Source: a virus
Taxonomy: Duplodnaviria; Heunggongvirae; Uroviricota; Caudoviricetes
Reading direction: 5' to 3' (one strand)
IMG/VR virus record: IMGVR_UViG_3300015155_000017
DNA: 61,304 nucleotides
Part shown: positions 22,859 through 39,692 of the stretch, one piece after another
Layout: every line of letters begins with the position of its first letter
Numbering within the stretch: the first letter of the stretch is position 1
Notes under the pieces: generated by a model
The model's input: only the letters and a program-made list of their open reading frames with translations
The model's database searches: none
Told to the model about the DNA's origin: nothing
Translations under genes and position numbers: made by a program

Positions 22859-23034
22859 TGCGTGTGGTATGTATCAGCTTGTTACCGTACCCGACTCGTT
22901 TTTGGGCTTCTGCGCTAATTGCAAAGCCACATGTCCTGATGGCTGACAACATCATCCCGGCACCAAAGCGCCGCCATACCGGTATTGCAGCGGCACGACG
23001 AGCAGCAAAGAGACGCAGGAGAGCAAAGCGATGA
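22858..23034 (+). CDS. small basic protein (58 aa)
   Basis: GGAGGTGA SD with TAGTG overlap; below track cutoff. Confidence 0.3.
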   Translation: MRVVCISLLPYPTRFWASALIAKPHVLMADNIIPAPKRRHTGIAAARRAAKRRRRAKR

Positions 23035-23207
23035 AAAACCGTAAGGCAAAACGACTTTTTTTACAGCGGCCTGTGCGTGTGGTGGAGCTGGTTATTAGCA
23101 ACCATAAGATAGCGGTACTCCATCCATTTGGTCAGGTGGCTTTTGCCGCAAAGCGTAAGCCTACTGCGTCACAGAACAGGCGGAAGAAAGGGTACGCAGT
23201 AAGATGA
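23031..23207 (+). CDS. small basic protein (58 aa), paralog of the next gene
   Basis: ATGA overlaps at both ends; N-terminus MKNRKAK shared with 23204..23392. Confidence 0.35.
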   Translation: MKNRKAKRLFLQRPVRVVELVISNHKIAVLHPFGQVAFAAKRKPTASQNRRKKGYAVR

Positions 23208-23392
23208 AAAACCGTAAAGCAAAGATTCTGTTAGTTCGTAGAAACGCTCCTGGCGTCTGGCAGTGGGTGAGACTCAGCAACCGACGGATGGGGTTGATGA
23301 AATATTACGGGATGATGGATTGTGGTTTTTGCAAAAAGCCCAGCGCGGCGCAAAACCGCTGGAAAAACCATTTGCGCACTAAAGGAGAGTGA
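23204..23392 (+). CDS. small basic protein (62 aa)
   Basis: MKNRKAKILLVRRN...; tandem paralog. Confidence 0.4.
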   Translation: MKNRKAKILLVRRNAPGVWQWVRLSNRRMGLMKYYGMMDCGFCKKPSAAQNRWKNHLRTKGE

Positions 23393-23393
23393 T

Positions 23394-23909
23394 ATGGCGT
23401 TAACACACCGCGAACTCTGTCAAATTGCGTACAAGTTCCTTAAGCGCAACGGGTTCAAGGTTTGTTTTCATGACCGCTTTATAGCTGTAACCAGTACCGG
23501 AGAACAGCCAGATGCTATGGGGTTCAGAAATTCAGCATCATGCCTGATAGAGGCGAAGTGTTCTCGTGCTGACTTGTTGGCAGATAGAAAAAAGCGTTTC
23601 CGTAAAAATCCCTCACTTGGCATGGGCGACTGGCGATTCTTTATTAGTGAGCCGGGAATTATTTCAATTGAGGATTTACCACCTGGCTGGGGATTACTTC
23701 ACGTTGTTAACGGAAGAGTACGGAAAGTACATGGGTGGCCCAAGGGTAATTGCTGTTGGGGTAATCCTGACGATAAGCCATTTACTGGAAATAAGCAGGT
23801 TGAATGCGATTACATGTTATCTGCATTAAGGCGCATGGAGTTGAGAGGGCACCTTAATGAAATATATGACGGTGTAATTGTTAATAAGAAAGAAGGAAAC
23901 GCGGCATGA
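23394..23909 (+). CDS. hypothetical protein (171 aa)
   Basis: AAGGAGAG SD then ATG at 23394. Confidence 0.5.
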   Translation: MALTHRELCQIAYKFLKRNGFKVCFHDRFIAVTSTGEQPDAMGFRNSASCLIEAKCSRADLLADRKKRFRKNPSLGMGDWRFFISEPGIISIEDLPPGWGLLHVVNGRVRKVHGWPKGNCCWGNPDDKPFTGNKQVECDYMLSALRRMELRGHLNEIYDGVIVNKKEGNAA

Positions 23910-24769
23910 TCACTATTACCAAAGAGCGACTGCTGACAATCAAGCAGTGGCGCGAAACATACGGACCTGATAGCAACGTTGTACTGCCAGCAGAAGAAGC
24001 GGAAGAACTGGCACGAATTGCACTGGCATCGCTGGAAGCAGAGCCAGTTGCTTATATTTTCAAACATCCGGCCGGGAAATTATTCTGGGCTTTAACGGAT
24101 GAAAGCAATAAAGAGCAACCGGACGTTATTCCTGTTTATGCTGACTCACCTGCGCCGGTTGTGCCGGATGAAATAGACGTAAACGATGTACCAAGGGCGG
24201 TGACATATTTCAAGACACACAGAGATTGTTACGCAGATGGCTGGAACGCCTGCCGCGCCGCCATGCTTCAGTCCGGAAACTTTCGGGAAAACAAGAATTC
24301 GTCAACCAATAATTTTCGGGAAATCGCGGAAACGTCAACCAACTATCCGGTAATTCCTAGTGAGGTGTTGTCCGCAATCCGGGAGGTTGCCAAGATTCGT
24401 GCCGATTTCGATGATTTTGACGGTGACAGGCGAGGTATCGGTGATTGTCTGGATGAGGTCGAGCAAGAGCTAATCGTTACCATTAACAAATATGCCAGTC
24501 AGTTGGCAGCAGAACCTATAGCGCCTAATGACGTTCGAGAGCAGACAGCCATTCCGCAAGTTCCGGTAACTCAGGATGGTTGGATAAGCTGTAGTGAGCA
24601 AATGCCCGCTCAAGATGATTGGATTTTAATTTATTCAAAGCACGGTGAGTATATGGCAGGACAGGTGCAAGGGGAATACGTGGAGTTGAGCGACGGCACT
24701 TTATCCTGGTTAGGGAACGCCTTGTTCTGGATGCCTCTACCAGAACCGCCGAAGGAGGTGAATCAATGA
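23906..24769 (+). CDS. hypothetical protein (287 aa)
   Basis: ATGA overlap with upstream stop; internal short tandem repeat near 24290-24350. Confidence 0.5.
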   Translation: MITITKERLLTIKQWRETYGPDSNVVLPAEEAEELARIALASLEAEPVAYIFKHPAGKLFWALTDESNKEQPDVIPVYADSPAPVVPDEIDVNDVPRAVTYFKTHRDCYADGWNACRAAMLQSGNFRENKNSSTNNFREIAETSTNYPVIPSEVLSAIREVAKIRADFDDFDGDRRGIGDCLDEVEQELIVTINKYASQLAAEPIAPNDVREQTAIPQVPVTQDGWISCSEQMPAQDDWILIYSKHGEYMAGQVQGEYVELSDGTLSWLGNALFWMPLPEPPKEVNQ

Positions 24770-24849
24770 GCTGGCCTGAAGCATTCACCACGGTAGGAAT
24801 TGTGATGGCGGCAGCACTGGGTTTGTATTCAATTTGTCGCTGGTGGTAA
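24766..24849 (+). CDS. small hydrophobic peptide (27 aa)
   Basis: ATGA overlap, GGAGG SD; MSWPEAFTTVGIVMAAALGLYSICRWW. Confidence 0.3.
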   Translation: MSWPEAFTTVGIVMAAALGLYSICRWW

Positions 24850-24851
24850 CG

Positions 24852-25085
24852 ATGGGGAAAATAACTTTTGTAGTCGAATTTGAGGATGGTAAAGAGCCAC
24901 CTGTTAGCACCAATCTTGATGTTGCTGGTGGCAGGCTTGTTTCGGTTCTATTTGGTGACTACCGAGATGATTTCTTCCAACCAGAAGAAGTTGATGTGGT
25001 GCGAGAGGCATTAAACGAGTTAAGTGTTGATAACGATGATGCTCATGCGGAAATCATCCAAAAAATGGAACTGCTAACTCACTAA
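24852..25085 (+). CDS. hypothetical protein (77 aa)
   Basis: ATG two nt after the upstream stop. Confidence 0.4.
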   Translation: MGKITFVVEFEDGKEPPVSTNLDVAGGRLVSVLFGDYRDDFFQPEEVDVVREALNELSVDNDDAHAEIIQKMELLTH

Positions 25086-25133
25086 ATTATCAATTATGGT
25101 GCTATCACCTACGACACCGAGAGAAAATTTATA

Positions 25134-25256
25134 ATGTCAAAAGTAAATGTTTTGATTTTTTCAGTAATTGTAGGTTTTGGTTTTTCTGCTGGAGTGCATA
25201 TTTATATTACGTGGGAAAAAATCATCAACTACGTATGGAGTTGTTTTATTAAGTGA
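25134..25256 (+). CDS. small hydrophobic peptide (40 aa) in AT-rich islet
   Basis: MSKVNVLIFSVIVGFGFSAGVHIYITW...; below track cutoff. Confidence 0.3.
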   Translation: MSKVNVLIFSVIVGFGFSAGVHIYITWEKIINYVWSCFIK

Positions 25257-25263
25257 GGTAAGT

Positions 25264-25557
25264 ATGTGGAGAGGTAATAGTCATGGCAAAAGCCAGATGA
25301 TACTTACCGAATATCAGTTTGACCATAAAACCAATAAATCACGTTCAGTATATTTGCTTCGGCACAATAGCCGCGTAAGGAATACCGTGCTGGAGCAAAA
25401 TCTGACTGTTGAAATGGATAATTACGGGGGCTTCAAGCCAACAATTTCGCTTGATGATTTTCCTCGTGGTTTAAGCGAAAGAGAAGCAATGCTGAAATTA
25501 GCAGAATGGCTACAAAGATTAAGCATTGCTATTGAAGATAACTGGTCTGAACCTTAA
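25264..25557 (+). CDS. hypothetical protein (97 aa) in AT-rich islet
   Basis: GAGGT SD before ATG 25264. Confidence 0.45.
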   Translation: MWRGNSHGKSQMILTEYQFDHKTNKSRSVYLLRHNSRVRNTVLEQNLTVEMDNYGGFKPTISLDDFPRGLSEREAMLKLAEWLQRLSIAIEDNWSEP

Positions 25558-25563
25558 ATTTAT

Positions 25564-25938
25564 ATGATGACACTAAAACATTTTCTTGACCGCCCATTAT
25601 GGGCGGCAGCCGCAGGCTATGACTTTAATTATATGGATTGCATGTCTTATACCGCCAATGCATACGACCATTCCTTCAGTCTGCTGCTTAATTCTTTAAG
25701 AATATTGCCGCAAACAGAAGTTGGAGAGCTTCATTTATGGCTATTGGGCTTTATCGCGGCTGGAGTTGGTATTGCTGTATGGCCTTTTATTTTCTGGCTG
25801 GTGGCTGTTGTAGTGTGGTTTAAGTGCAAGACGTACCGGAGAAAGTATTTCTTAGGTGATGGAATGACTGATATTGCCAAAATGAACATTGAAAAATGGA
25901 CTAAGGAATGTGAAAAGAAATGGCGCAAAAAGAAATGA
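25564..25938 (+). CDS. membrane protein (124 aa)
   Basis: Hydrophobic core LWLLGFIAAGVGIAVWPFIFWLVAVVVWF with Lys-rich tail. Confidence 0.5.
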   Translation: MMTLKHFLDRPLWAAAAGYDFNYMDCMSYTANAYDHSFSLLLNSLRILPQTEVGELHLWLLGFIAAGVGIAVWPFIFWLVAVVVWFKCKTYRRKYFLGDGMTDIAKMNIEKWTKECEKKWRKKK

Positions 25939-26858
25939 CCAGAATCACTGAAGAGCGTATATCAGAGATTATTTCCCGTATCGAAATGTATGGTCACGGT
26001 GCTGGATATACGGCAGATGAAGTATTGGCACTTGCCCAAATGGCTTTGGCGGCTTGCAAAGATGATAAAAAAATGAAGTTTATCGACTTGTTAGTGAAGG
26101 AGCTGCCTAAGTGCGGCGGGTGGCCTGATGGAATGAGTTATTGTTACCTACCCAGTGTCAATTTAATGGCACCATGCGCGACTTTTGCTTTTGGCTCAGA
26201 CCACAAAAAAGACACTTTCTTTGGGCGCAATTTTTGTTGTGAGATTGAGCTTCCAATTGGTGACCTTGATAGCGATGAATACCAGTCAGTTGTCACTCGC
26301 GAACAATACGAATCAGCTCTCATAGCGTCGCAGAAAGTCGAGTTCAATGGTGATGAACTTGAAAGTAAGACTTACAGGTTGGATTTTGGGCAATGGCTGG
26401 AACAGCAACGCGGGAAAATCGATGTGGACTGTGGTTGTGTGTCCACTGAAACATTCATGCACTGGCTGCGGGTAGCTTACGAGGCTGGCAACTATCCGGA
26501 TATTCCGGATAGTTCGGTGCCAGCACCAGGAAAGGGCGTCACCGGTGAACGTATCCGAATTAAGCCGCATGTTTATCGCGAACTGGTTAACCGTCTCCAC
26601 GATACAGCGATCAAGTGTGCTGGCACCCAGCAATTACGAGAAAGAATAAGCCGTGTTTTGGGCGACGTTATTACACCAGATCATCATAAACAAGCCGAGA
26701 AAAGTGGCCTGGAAAGGTGTCGCCTTGAGGCGGCATTAAACATTAAGCCGGGGCATACGCTTGGCATTATTGATGCACTATTGGTTCATAAGATGGCCAG
26801 GGCTTTATTGCCGCTGGTGGCTGAAAAGCATGAGGTGGACCATGCCAACGAAAGCTGA
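25920..26858 (+). CDS. hypothetical protein (312 aa)
   Basis: Long ORF overlapping the upstream stop; Cys-rich. Confidence 0.5.
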   Translation: MAQKEMTRITEERISEIISRIEMYGHGAGYTADEVLALAQMALAACKDDKKMKFIDLLVKELPKCGGWPDGMSYCYLPSVNLMAPCATFAFGSDHKKDTFFGRNFCCEIELPIGDLDSDEYQSVVTREQYESALIASQKVEFNGDELESKTYRLDFGQWLEQQRGKIDVDCGCVSTETFMHWLRVAYEAGNYPDIPDSSVPAPGKGVTGERIRIKPHVYRELVNRLHDTAIKCAGTQQLRERISRVLGDVITPDHHKQAEKSGLERCRLEAALNIKPGHTLGIIDALLVHKMARALLPLVAEKHEVDHANES

Positions 26859-27126
26859 ATTACAGGTGCGCGTAGATGAGCTTGAAAAAGAGAACGCGAG
26901 CCTCAAAAAAATGCTGTCGCGGGCGGAAAGGGAATTATCAGGCAAATTATTGCCAGAAGAACTGCCACCAGCAGATATACCTGATCGAGTGTCCTGGTGG
27001 ATGAAGTATTTCCGTGCACCGTGGGAGGCGTTTTGGTGCTACGACCATCGCAGATGGTGTGATGAACTTGATAGCAATTTTCCCTACTTTGCGGAAGGGA
27101 ACACCTGCCCTCAATGCAGGGGATAG
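26842..27126 (+). CDS. coiled-coil / zinc-ribbon-like small protein (94 aa)
   Basis: GAGGTGG SD; CYDHRRWC...CPQC. Confidence 0.4.
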   Translation: MPTKAELQVRVDELEKENASLKKMLSRAERELSGKLLPEELPPADIPDRVSWWMKYFRAPWEAFWCYDHRRWCDELDSNFPYFAEGNTCPQCRG

Positions 27127-30188: not shown

Positions 30189-30205
30189 ATTGCTCTAATG
30201 TATTG
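30189..30205 (+). promoter_or_regulatory. C1 operator upstream of lpa
   Basis: ATTGCTCTAATGTATTG. Confidence 0.55.
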
Positions 30206-38651: not shown

Positions 38652-39692
38652 TTACATGGGATTAACCACAACCTTTCCATATATATCAAGTTTTGATTGT
38701 AATACGTTGACGTGAGACAATTCTTTATTCGAACTAACTTTATCTAAAATTATATTTTTATCTTTTTCAGTCATGTTATACCCTAAGGTAATTTGCTTGA
38801 ATGCAGAAAAAGGAATTTTCTTTAAGTTAATTTCATGATAGTCATGAAAAACATTAGGATACTCATTTAATAGGCAATCATCAATCGATGGAGAGACAAT
38901 GCTTCCTATTTTTCTCTCGCAATCAGCCAATGGAAAAATAATTCTACTTTCATTTTCAGGAAGCCACTCTTCACCTTTTGTATAAAGAAGCCTATTAATA
39001 AAAAGCTCGCGAACTGAATCTCGATTTAAGATCCCATGCAATGTATTATCTTTATTCTTTATATCTATATTCCTCGATGGCGCAGGATAGCCATTAAATC
39101 GCACTGCGCCTTTATAATAGGTTACAGATGCTCTATCTTCTGGATTATAACTAACATCACACGGCCGATATATTTTGAAAAAATCGTGTGTTTCATCGAA
39201 AACTACAGCAAACCCCTTTCCTATCGATGCATAATGAGTCCACATGTGTAGATTGCAATCACTTTTTGATAGAGAGAACACACCAAGATGACAGCTTACG
39301 GCTTCTACTAAATAATCGTTAAGGCGCGTTACTATTTCTTGGAGTTTAGATTCATCATATGAATCCATTGAGGTAAAACCTTCATTGATTAACAAGTGTG
39401 GAAAATCCTCTCCGTATCGTTTCCCGCAAGGTTTTAAATAATACTCTAACTCTTGTATAGATGGGACATAAGATGGATCTCGTTGCATTTTCTTAAATTC
39501 ATTTCTAGCCCATGCGTAATCGGCTGGTGAAAATTTATTAAAAAATGGAAGAAGTCGCGACTCACTCGACGGATCATTAAGATACTTTGGTTGCGTTGCT
39601 CTAAAGAAACCATCCTCCAGACAAGATGTTCGAATGTGCATGCCCGGCCAAGGTTTTTCCATATAACTCTCGCCTATATATTTAACTAACAC
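38652..39692 (-). CDS. hypothetical protein of unknown function (346 aa from GTG; 336 aa from ATG at 39662); candidate defence/exclusion gene at the P1 res-mod position
   Basis: AT-rich ORF unlike the flanking P1 backbone; sits where P1 carries res-mod; contains GVFSLSKSDCNLHMWTHYASIGKGFAVVFD, which I tentatively recall as the DUF2971 signature. Confidence 0.7.
   Translation of the reverse strand: MLVKYIGESYMEKPWPGMHIRTSCLEDGFFRATQPKYLNDPSSESRLLPFFNKFSPADYAWARNEFKKMQRDPSYVPSIQELEYYLKPCGKRYGEDFPHLLINEGFTSMDSYDESKLQEIVTRLNDYLVEAVSCHLGVFSLSKSDCNLHMWTHYASIGKGFAVVFDETHDFFKIYRPCDVSYNPEDRASVTYYKGAVRFNGYPAPSRNIDIKNKDNTLHGILNRDSVRELFINRLLYTKGEEWLPENESRIIFPLADCERKIGSIVSPSIDDCLLNEYPNVFHDYHEINLKKIPFSAFKQITLGYNMTEKDKNIILDKVSSNKELSHVNVLQSKLDIYGKVVVNPM

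What the first reader, a model, noticed from the sequence alone, without database searches (positions are those of the whole stretch)
25090..25940. AT-rich islet of three small genes including two hydrophobic proteins
Within the otherwise ~50% GC early-gene block, 25.1-25.9 kb is markedly AT-rich and encodes a 40-aa hydrophobic peptide (25134..25256), a 97-aa soluble protein (25264..25557) and a 124-aa membrane protein (25564..25938). The composition and small membrane proteins suggest an accessory cargo module (toxin/immunity, exclusion or membrane-acting function) rather than core replication or morphogenesis.
Basis: inference. Interest (0 to 1): 0.45.

Follow-up and report, generated by a model that had tools for sequence, protein, structure and literature searches.

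The report
Small accessory genes in P1-like early operon
The AT-rich stretch is real and holds three (really four to five) small genes, two of them membrane proteins, but it is an ordinary, dispensable piece of an already described variable region of P1-like phage-plasmids, its genes are of unknown function, and nothing supports a toxin/immunity module.

Summary
Observation confirmed. The three ORFs sit at the stated coordinates. GC is 38.5% against 48.7% for the window (1.6th percentile). The 40-aa and 124-aa products each have a clear hydrophobic span. The window is an SJ46-type P1-like phage-plasmid, and the islet lies in the pap–hot interval, a published variable, low-GC region whose P1 genes are non-essential. 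Classical P1 and P7 lack these genes. About 40–46% of P1-like elements in complete E. coli genomes carry them. They sit inside a roughly 7-kb same-strand gene array downstream of the conserved C1 operator OpmgT (19862–19878). I found no convincing internal promoter or terminator, so I infer expression on derepression rather than from the prophage. Each gene belongs to a PHROG of unknown function. The 97-aa protein is the N15 gp44 / phiKO2 gp43 family and also occurs in lambdoid nin regions. The 124-aa family is rare and sits next to Dam in N15-like phages. The 40-aa peptide follows ea22/eaa genes in epsilon15-like phages. The genes assort separately, and there are no TA, defence, Pfam, Rfam or informative fold matches. 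Verdict: ordinary early accessory genes, function unknown, low interest.

The parts
19862..19878 (+). C1 repressor operator OpmgT (Op88), overlapping the PpmgT promoters; presumed control point of the downstream + strand array that contains the islet
   Evidence: ATTGCTCTAATAAATCT is one mismatch from the operator pattern I searched, and the pattern is enriched in the window (15 matches against 0.28 expected). The 17-mer is identical to the P1 operator, is annotated as such in NC_005856 and P7, and lies in a segment about 98-99% identical between the three. No other operator match occurs before 30189.
24766..24849 (+). 27-aa hydrophobic ORF (MSWPEAFTTVGIVMAAALGLYSICRWW) whose start overlaps the stop of the DUF551 gene
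   Evidence: Translation; KD19 maximum 1.85; recurs upstream of orf77 in many P1-like contigs. No family match. Coding status unproven.
24852..25085 (+). orf77: acidic 77-aa protein (pI 4.2), phrog_3876; first gene of the AT-rich trough; always travels with the 40-aa gene
   Evidence: PHROG match E 2e-52; 18 D/E against 6 K/R; pN/pS 0.07; co-occurs with pep40; distant homologues next to eaA in P22-like phages.
25134..25256 (+). pep40: 40-aa single-span membrane peptide, phrog_5525
   Evidence: ORF; PHROG E 2.4e-22 over the full length; hydrophobic span 5-26; 40-aa homologues at 47-50% identity directly after ea22/eaa genes in epsilon15-like phages; intact in 118 copies but pN/pS 0.56.
25264..25557 (+). 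orf97: soluble 97-aa protein of the N15 gp44 / phiKO2 gp43 family, phrog_1258; predicted four-strand beta meander plus a C-terminal helix
   Evidence: GAGG Shine-Dalgarno 6 nt upstream; PHROG E 1e-49; 55-67% identity to N15 gp44 and phiKO2 gp43; 128 homologue clusters; AF2 pLDDT 80; pN/pS 0.22.
25564..25938 (+). orf124: membrane protein with a conserved ~55-aa N-terminal domain (F-x-D-x-P-x2-A-x3-G-Y), a ~30-aa hydrophobic span with a central Pro, and a basic C-tail; phrog_2638
   Evidence: PHROG E 5e-63; only 38 cluster representatives among 1.84 billion proteins; alignments; hydropathy and charge; AF2 all-helical but low confidence, pLDDT 63; pN/pS 0.26. Its stop overlaps the ATG at 25935 of the next gene (ATGA).
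25920..26858 (+). orf312: downstream gene whose C-terminal third is homologous to P1 PmgU; marks the return to ~47-50% GC
   Evidence: ORF. The P1 PmgU sequence matches orf312 residues ~205-312 by my own visual comparison of the two translations; no alignment was run. GC 0.473.

Best explanation
The islet is a string of independent, dispensable accessory genes (orf77, pep40, orf97, orf124, perhaps also the 27-aa ORF). It lies in the pap-hot variable region of an SJ46-type P1-like phage-plasmid.

Shown:
- The genes lie in a tightly packed same-strand array that starts just downstream of the conserved C1 operator OpmgT at 19862-19878 and ends near 27.1 kb.
- Each gene belongs to a family that elsewhere sits in the non-essential delayed-early 'nin/ea-type' arrays of lambdoid, P22-like, epsilon15-like and N15-like temperate phages.
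- They are exchanged gene by gene between P1-like elements.
- orf77, orf97 and orf124 are under purifying selection.

Inferred:
- They were imported by recombination from that shared phage gene pool, which accounts for the foreign, AT-rich composition.
- They are transcribed as part of the C1-repressed early operon, that is after infection or induction and not in the stable lysogen.
- They act early in lytic development as optional host-modifying or competition factors. orf97 would act in the cytoplasm. pep40 and orf124 would act at the inner membrane, with the basic tail of orf124 in the cytoplasm by the positive-inside rule.

The molecular targets are unknown.
For: - Identity of the element: 97.7-98.9% DNA identity to SJ46 and vB_EcoM-813R1; 310 mostly non-mobilizable ~95-kb plasmids of Escherichia, Salmonella, Shigella and Klebsiella.
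- Position between pmgS/pap and hot/humD/phd/doc.
- P1 and P7 carry other genes in this interval.
- Conserved C1 operator and promoter region, annotated in P1 as OpmgT with P1pmgT/P2pmgT and in P7 as the operator of the 'hea operon'.
- No + strand promoter-like site between 24415 and 27805 and no + strand terminator-like site between 24048 and 26747. Totals are at or below the shuffle expectation.
- Gene gaps of 48 nt or less, including ATGA overlaps.
- Carried by 313 of 676 P1-like records, 267 of them with at least 80% of the islet.
- Breakpoints coincide with gene borders, with several alternative architectures.
- Homologue contexts: the nin region between ninF and HNH/rusA; N15 gp44 and phiKO2 gp43 beside a methyltransferase; orf124 homologues between an RNase_T exonuclease and Dam, overlapping the Dam start; pep40 after ea22/eaa; orf77 next to eaA.
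- Purifying selection.
- Literature: variable region 8 and the link with low GC (PMC9603915); hot-spots at AT-rich boundaries (PMC6906374); P1 pmgT/U/V and upfN/O non-essential (PMC10695390).
Against: - There are no expression data for this element. AT-rich DNA can hold weak promoters that the consensus scan misses, so prophage-state expression is not excluded.
- Read-through from PpmgT over ~5 kb to the islet is inferred from gene packing, not shown. The interval 22858-23322 was not examined for signals.
- No function is known for any member of the four families, so 'host-modifying early factor' is a class assignment by context, not a mechanism.
- pep40 shows weak sequence constraint (pN/pS 0.56).
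- Within P1-like elements that carry orf124, orf97 is almost always its upstream neighbour (76 of 77 contigs). This could reflect functional coupling rather than recent common descent.
Confidence: 0.62

Rival explanations
1. Lysogenic-conversion cargo: the small membrane proteins are made in the prophage state and protect the lysogen, by superinfection exclusion or a membrane-level anti-phage function.
For: - AT-rich, variable, small inner-membrane proteins fit the general profile of known exclusion proteins (background knowledge: T4 Imm/Sp, P22 SieA/SieB, HK97 gp15).
- P1-like variable regions do carry defence-type cargo. The deeper AT-rich trough of this same window encodes a DUF2971 protein that matches the PADLOC candidate PDC-S31.
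- Weak internal promoters cannot be excluded.
Against: - Same strand and tight coupling inside an array behind a conserved C1 operator; no own promoter or terminator found.
- No PADLOC hit for any of the eight proteins tested.
- Homologues elsewhere sit in delayed-early lytic operons (nin region, N15 early right-arm operon next to its Q-like gene), not in typical moron positions with their own promoter and terminator.
Confidence: 0.15
2. A toxin/antitoxin or toxin/immunity pair: a hydrophobic toxin (pep40 or orf124) neutralised by the soluble orf97, or a type I toxin with an antisense RNA.
For: - Small hydrophobic peptides are typical type I toxins.
- Two membrane proteins flank a small soluble one.
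- orf97 and orf124 are adjacent in 76 of 77 P1-like contigs that carry orf124.
Against: - The partners occur without each other. orf97 is found alone with other neighbours. orf124 is alone in N15-like phages, and orf97 alone in N15, phiKO2 and nin regions. In Proteus phages the two lie ~6 kb apart. pep40 is replaced by ASCH in RCS47-type elements.
- No Rfam family on either strand.
- No TA or defence profile hit.
- No autonomous promoter.
- The element already carries phd-doc 3 kb downstream.
Confidence: 0.04
3. Lysis-related membrane proteins: orf124 or pep40 acts as a holin, antiholin or lysis-timing modulator.
For: Architecture of a short soluble N-domain, a hydrophobic span and a highly basic C-tail. 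There is a sub-threshold match of residues 84-123 to holin phrog_20 (E 0.09).
Against: - The PHROG hit is not significant and covers only the basic tail.
- Homologues never lie beside endolysin or spanin genes. In N15-like phages they are about 3-4 kb upstream of the lysis genes, in the early operon.
- No lysis gene was seen in the pmgS-to-doc interval examined. That the P1-type lysis genes lie elsewhere in the genome is background knowledge, not checked here.
Confidence: 0.05
4. The 40-aa (and 27-aa) ORFs are not genes, only open frames in AT-rich or spacer DNA. The islet then contains just the 77-, 97- and 124-aa genes.
For: pep40 pN/pS is 0.56, with variable sites spread evenly over codon positions (3/6/6) and 12 DNA alleles giving 11 protein alleles. 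Its Shine-Dalgarno is weak. The 27-aa ORF has no family match.
Against: - pep40 is intact in all 118 copies.
- A 40-aa homologue of the same length at 47-50% identity, with 17 invariant positions, is kept in epsilon15-like phages and overlaps both neighbouring genes there.
- Full-length match to phrog_5525, E 2.4e-22.
- The substitutions are conservative hydrophobic exchanges.
Confidence: 0.12

Closest known systems
Variable region between pap/pmgS and hot of P1-like phage-plasmids ('highly variable region 8' of PMC9603915; RD hot-spots of PMC6906374; P1 pmgT-pmgU-pmgV-upfM/N/O; P7 'hea operon')
   Same: Same genomic slot, same C1 operator upstream, same strand, low-GC stretches, non-essential occupants, different gene sets in different elements (PMC9603915; PMC6906374; PMC10695390).
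   Different: The gene content differs from P1 and P7. Apart from a PmgU-like C-terminus in the next gene (orf312), none of the islet proteins has a homologue in P1 or P7.
N15 gp44 / phiKO2 Gp43 (phrog_1258), uncharacterised delayed-early proteins of telomere phages and of lambdoid nin regions
   Same: orf97 aligns over its full length at 55-67% identity, 42% to the nin-region members. Same size and same conserved C-terminal helix motif FP.GLSERE.MLKLADWL.
   Different: Here it sits in a P1-type C1-controlled operon rather than beside nin genes or in the N15-type early right-arm operon. No member has a known function.
Lambdoid/P22 'ea' and 'nin' accessory genes, and the phage 'accessory regions' concept (bioRxiv 10.1101/2023.04.06.535777)
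   Same: Clusters of small, fast-shuffling, non-essential early genes that are exchanged gene by gene. The flanking 20.9-24.6 kb is ~96% identical to the ea regions of Stx phages. orf77 and pep40 homologues sit next to eaA/ea22.
   Different: That paper reports counter-defence or cell-death-trigger roles for some accessory genes. None of the present families was tested there (no P1 or N15 mention).
Small membrane exclusion or toxin proteins (T4 Imm/Sp, P22 SieA/B, Hok-type type I toxins)
   Same: Only size and hydrophobicity.
   Different: No sequence, profile or RNA-family similarity. No own promoter. Embedded in a repressor-controlled lytic operon.

Membership tests
P1-like (Punavirus) pap-hot variable region / C1-controlled pmgT-type operon | Located between pmgS-pap and hot-humD-phd-doc on the same strand | tested here: met
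   Synteny with SJ46, RCS47, P1 and P7.
P1-like (Punavirus) pap-hot variable region / C1-controlled pmgT-type operon | C1 operator OpmgT/Op88 with overlapping promoters immediately upstream of the array | tested here: met
   The 17-bp operator at 19862-19878 is identical to that of P1, and the surrounding ~230 bp are about 98-99% identical to P1 and P7.
P1-like (Punavirus) pap-hot variable region / C1-controlled pmgT-type operon | Islet genes actually co-transcribed from that promoter and repressed by C1 | not testable with these tools
   Inferred only, from gene packing and the absence of promoter- or terminator-like sites.
phrog_1258 / N15 gp44 family (orf97) | Full-length sequence similarity to family members | tested here: met
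   PHROG E 1.1e-49 over 97/97 positions; 55% identity to N15 gp44 and 67% to phiKO2 gp43.
phrog_2638 (orf124) | Full-length profile match, with the N-terminal motif, hydrophobic span and basic tail shared by members | tested here: met
   PHROG E 4.9e-63; alignment of 28 representatives with P11, A14 and G18 invariant.
phrog_5525 (pep40) | Full-length profile match, same length | tested here: met
   E 2.4e-22 over 40/40 positions; 40-aa homologues in epsilon15-like phages.
Type II toxin-antitoxin or toxin-immunity pair | Obligate co-occurrence of the two partners | tested here: not met
   orf97 occurs without orf124 and the reverse; pep40 is replaced by ASCH.
Type II toxin-antitoxin or toxin-immunity pair | Match to known TA or defence protein profiles | tested here: not met
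   No PADLOC, Pfam or NCBIfam hit.
Type II toxin-antitoxin or toxin-immunity pair | Toxicity of one product, rescued by the other | not testable with these tools
   Needs expression experiments.
Type I toxin (Hok/Ldr/TisB-like) with antisense RNA | Known toxin mRNA or antisense RNA family, own promoter | tested here: not met
   No Rfam match at E<=1 in 24500-26300 on either strand; no + strand promoter-like site.
Holin / antiholin | Significant profile match and location in a lysis cassette | tested here: not met
   phrog_20 E 0.09 on the basic tail only; neighbours are never endolysin or spanin genes.
Known anti-phage defence systems (PADLOC-DB 2.0) | Profile match of any islet protein | tested here: not met
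   Zero families for all eight proteins tested at E<=1.

The most novel reading that the evidence does not exclude
One or more of these uncharacterised families is a new kind of early phage effector. The best candidates are two.

(a) orf124. It is a rare, membrane-anchored protein with a conserved N-terminal motif, and in N15-like phages it is translationally coupled to Dam. It could act at the inner membrane against a host defence or against competing phage DNA entry.

(b) The orf77-pep40 pair, which always travels together. It combines a strongly acidic 77-aa protein, with DNA-mimic-like composition and under the strongest constraint, and a membrane peptide. It could be a counter-defence or trigger pair.

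None of the evidence excludes these readings, and none points to them specifically.
Probability: 0.12. Interest if true: 0.45.

Novelty: already known. Interest (0 to 1): 0.15.

Why it matters
As it stands this matters little. The sequence is identical or nearly so in hundreds of sequenced plasmids. The interval is a published variable region of P1-like phage-plasmids, and the genes are annotated hypothetical proteins that belong to existing PHROG families.

The modest value lies in four points:
- It places the genes in a C1-controlled early operon, which argues against prophage-expressed cargo.
- It shows that the 'module' is really a set of separately exchangeable cassettes, drawn from the nin/ea-type gene pool shared by lambdoid, P22-like, epsilon15-like and N15-like phages.
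- It identifies orf97 as the N15 gp44 family.
- It flags orf124 and the orf77-pep40 pair as cheap candidates for accessory-gene screens.

P1-like phage-plasmids are common carriers of resistance genes in Enterobacteriaceae. Knowing which parts are dispensable and recombinogenic has some practical use.

Tried and rejected
- Pfam, NCBIfam and PADLOC scans of eight proteins gave nothing above noise. Scanning all members of the orf97 and orf124 alignments against Pfam also gave nothing.
- PDB sequence searches with the profiles of orf97 and orf124 and with orf77 gave no meaningful hit.
- The AF2 model of orf124 had pLDDT 63 from a six-sequence alignment, which I submitted before the wider family was known. 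It is too poor for a fold search, so none was run.
- The afdb50 library was unavailable.
- Rfam at gathering threshold over the whole window found only three tRNAs. At E<=1 over the islet it found nothing.
- A search for a P1 late-promoter -22 box like that of LPhot gave no + strand site in the islet, and the overall count was not above chance.
- The search for related loci failed with the broad orf124 alignment because no stretch was conserved enough. It worked with the narrower one.
- Literature searches for N15 gp44 / phiKO2 gp43 function and for accessory-gene screens that include P1 or N15 found nothing specific.
- The third homologous-protein search was not spent on pep40, because the PHROG match and the viral-contig scan already answered the question.
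- The TA, type I toxin and holin readings were considered and rejected, as listed under rivals.
Full report
**Observation**

The three ORFs are present exactly as described, all on the + strand: 25134..25256 (40 aa), 25264..25557 (97 aa) and 25564..25938 (124 aa). The gaps between them are 7 and 6 nt. The stop of the 124-aa gene overlaps an in-frame ATG of the next gene (ATGA at 25935-25938).

GC of 25090-25940 is 0.385 against 0.487 for the whole window. Among 851-nt sliding windows (sd 0.032) only 1.6% are as AT-rich or more (profile). The trough really runs from about 24.85 to 26.15 kb. It therefore also covers an acidic 77-aa gene (24852..25085, GC 0.42, GC3 0.33) and the 5' part of the following 312-aa gene. 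It is the second AT-richest stretch of the window.

Kyte-Doolittle analysis confirms one hydrophobic span in the 40-aa peptide (residues 5-26). The 124-aa protein has a ~30-residue span (57-87, with a central Pro), a mildly acidic 56-residue N-terminal part and a strongly basic C-terminal tail (13 K/R against 5 D/E). The 97-aa protein is hydrophilic. A further 27-aa hydrophobic ORF (24766..24849) overlaps the stop of the upstream DUF551 gene.

**Are they genes?**

I compared all distinct alleles found in about 160 related viral contigs. Summed pairwise pN/pS is 0.07 for orf77, 0.22 for orf97 and 0.26 for orf124, with third-position variation dominating. No copy has a premature stop. Copy counts are inflated because some contigs were fetched in both scans; the allele counts are of distinct sequences.

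pep40 is intact in all 118 copies. Its pN/pS is 0.56, and its variable sites are spread evenly over codon positions. On the other hand, a 40-aa homologue of identical length at 47-50% identity, with 17 invariant positions, is kept in epsilon15-like (Uetakevirus) phages, where it overlaps both neighbouring genes. It also matches phrog_5525 over its full length (E 2.4e-22). I take pep40 as probably coding.

The conserved N-terminus (W2 R3 G4) across distant homologues and the GAGG 6 nt upstream support the 97-aa start over the shorter SJ46 annotation.

**What the element is and where the islet sits**

The region is 97.7-98.9% identical to Salmonella phage SJ46 and Escherichia phage vB_EcoM-813R1. 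It is 93-100% identical to 310 PLSDB plasmids, mostly ~95-kb non-mobilizable E. coli plasmids, plus some from Salmonella, Shigella and Klebsiella. The window is therefore an SJ46-type P1-like phage-plasmid.

The islet lies between pmgS/pap (3'-phosphatase) and hot/humD/phd/doc. [quoted passage not shown] P7 carries a different set that its annotators call the 'hea operon'. Neither encodes a homologue of any islet protein. The only link is that the C-terminal third of the downstream 312-aa gene appears PmgU-like, which I judged by eye from the two translations.

**Frequency and mosaicism**

In 5,426 complete E. coli genomes, pmgS-bearing (P1-like) records number 676. Islet DNA occurs in 313 of them, and at least 80% of it in 267. 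That makes it a feature of roughly 40-46% of P1-like elements, almost always on plasmids: 314 of 318 places.

Partial matches break at gene borders: window 25258 (start of orf97), 25557 (its stop) and ~25832. Fetched examples show these architectures:
- ASCH-orf97-[69-aa gene]-..., without orf124.
- Eaa-ASCH-orf97-orf124, the RCS47 type.
- orf97-[54-aa insert]-orf124.
- A natural deletion that fuses orf77 residues 1-28 to orf124 residues 91-124.

Among 77 P1-like viral contigs that carry orf124, orf97 is its upstream neighbour in 76. The position upstream of orf97 is occupied either by orf77-pep40, which always occur together, or by ASCH.

**Published context**

This interval is already described. 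[quoted passage not shown] PMC6906374 places the common regions of difference at boundaries between average-GC and AT-rich loci. PMC10695390 reports P1 pmgT, pmgU, pmgV, upfN and upfO as non-essential by CRISPRi and by a cited deletion survey.

**Regulatory setting**

The 17-bp C1 operator OpmgT (former Op88) is identical to that of P1 at window 19862-19878. The overlapping PpmgT promoter region and the ~230 bp around it are about 98-99% identical to P1 and P7. The next operator-like sequence is at 30189.

From 20057 to 27126 the + strand carries a continuous array of roughly 15 ORFs, most with overlapping or nearly abutting ends. The consensus scan finds no + strand promoter-like site between 24415 and 27805 and no + strand terminator-like site between 24048 and 26747. 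Counts are at or below shuffle expectation. No LPhot-like late-promoter box lies in the islet.

My inference, not shown, is that the islet is transcribed as part of a C1-repressed early operon. It would then be expressed after infection or induction and be silent in the stable lysogen. This is the main argument against prophage-expressed exclusion or immunity cargo.

**Relatives and their contexts**

All four proteins match PHROGs of unknown function: phrog_3876, 5525, 1258 and 2638. None matches Pfam, NCBIfam or PADLOC.

- orf97 is a member of the N15 gp44 / phiKO2 Gp43 family, at 55% and 67% identity over its full length. There it sits in the early right-arm operon next to the Q-like antiterminator gene, near an exonuclease and a DNA methyltransferase. 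More distant members (42%) sit in the nin regions of lambdoid and P22-like phages, between ninF and HNH/rusA. Many others are in Klebsiella, Citrobacter, Salmonella and Erwinia prophages.
- orf124 belongs to a rare family, with 38 representatives at E<=1e-3 among 1.84 billion clustered proteins. All members are ~105-130 aa and share the N-terminal motif (F7, P11, A14, G18, Y19 nearly or fully invariant), the Pro-containing hydrophobic span and, in the closer members, a W..ECEKKW tail. In N15/PY54-like genomes the homologue lies between an RNase_T-type exonuclease and Dam, overlapping the Dam start.
- N15-like genomes carry either the orf97 or the orf124 family, not both, in the loci examined. 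Proteus phages carry both, about 6 kb apart.
- pep40 homologues follow ea22/eaa genes. orf77 homologues lie next to eaA in P22-like phages.
- The flanking 20.9-24.6 kb of the window is ~96% identical to the ea regions of Stx-converting phages.

All of this places the islet genes in the pool of small, non-essential delayed-early 'nin/ea-type' genes that temperate enterobacterial phages exchange gene by gene. Import from that pool is the simplest explanation for the deviant composition.

**Structure**

**Mechanism: what I commit to**

The most likely account (confidence about 0.6) is that these are optional early-operon accessory genes that act during lytic development. orf97 would act in the cytoplasm. 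pep40 and orf124 would act at the inner membrane, with the basic tail of orf124 cytoplasmic by the positive-inside rule. Their job would be to modify the host or to compete with other elements.

Shown:
- location, and the conserved operator;
- mosaic assortment;
- accessory status;
- purifying selection;
- family membership.

Inferred:
- co-transcription from PpmgT;
- timing of expression;
- topology;
- the functional class.

Rivals:
- Prophage-expressed exclusion or defence cargo, 0.15.
- pep40 not being a gene, 0.12.
- Holin-like function, 0.05.
- TA pair, 0.04.

The TA reading fails the co-occurrence test and has no profile, RNA or promoter support.

**Novelty and score**

Nothing here is new as sequence, as gene families or as a genomic region. 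The functions remain unknown, as for most phage accessory genes. Its 'accessory' inference is right, while its 'module' and 'toxin/immunity or exclusion' suggestions are unsupported. Interest is 0.15.

The residual novel reading has a probability of about 0.12. Under it, orf124 or the orf77-pep40 pair would be a new early effector, for example counter-defence. That would be of moderate interest if true.

Noticed in passing
window 38652-39692 (- strand), within the AT-rich trough at ~38.0-39.9 kb: This is the deepest AT-rich trough of the window (GC minimum 0.336). It encodes a 346-aa DUF2971 protein that matches the PADLOC candidate defence system PDC-S31 (E 7.7e-17). It is a better candidate for prophage-borne defence cargo than the islet under review.
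   Followed up: partly
window 24852-25085: orf77 is strongly acidic (pI 4.2; 18 D/E against 6 K/R) and shows the strongest purifying selection in the islet (pN/pS 0.07). It always travels with the 40-aa membrane peptide. The composition is reminiscent of DNA-mimic anti-restriction proteins, but no family or PDB match was found.
   Followed up: partly
window 19961-20047: A 28-aa hydrophobic ORF (MNTAFKIIMAAIYFWLFSITFGGIVAHG) with a good Shine-Dalgarno lies just downstream of the C1 operator OpmgT. Its protein is identical in P1 and P7 (one synonymous change in P1). It is not annotated in P1 NC_005856 but is called 'membrane protein' (a longer 44-aa version) in SJ46.
   Followed up: partly
window 24766-24849: A 27-aa hydrophobic ORF overlaps the stop of the DUF551 gene. 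It alternates with an Eaa-type gene at this position among P1-like contigs.
   Followed up: partly
L015 (NZ_JBSWAS010000004.1, plasmid pCR-0543_3) 2334-2604: A natural deletion variant: the 27-aa ORF and orf77 residues 1-28 are joined directly to orf124 residues 91-124. This removes pep40, orf97 and most of orf124, evidence that the islet is dispensable for plasmid maintenance.
   Followed up: partly
window ~20874-24607: This stretch is about 96% identical at DNA level to the early 'ea' regions (Ead/Ea22, DUF551 genes) of Stx-converting lambdoid phages. That points to recent exchange between P1-like plasmids and Stx prophages.
   Followed up: no
L003 (Yersinia phage vB_YenS-P840) 4001-4360: The orf124 homologue (41% identity) is annotated 'conotoxin' in GenBank. 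This looks like a spurious annotation, probably driven by the Cys/Lys-rich tail.
   Followed up: no
window 4917-4989, 4995-5067, 6502-6574: Three tRNA genes on the + strand, the only Rfam hits at gathering threshold in the window.
   Followed up: no
L006 (P1) 3487-4136; L007 (P7) 6557-7187: P1 and P7 have their own AT-rich stretches of tiny ORFs in the same variable region (upfM-upfO, GC 0.375; upf91.3-91.7, GC 0.404). AT-rich runs of very small ORFs thus recur in this slot.
   Followed up: partly
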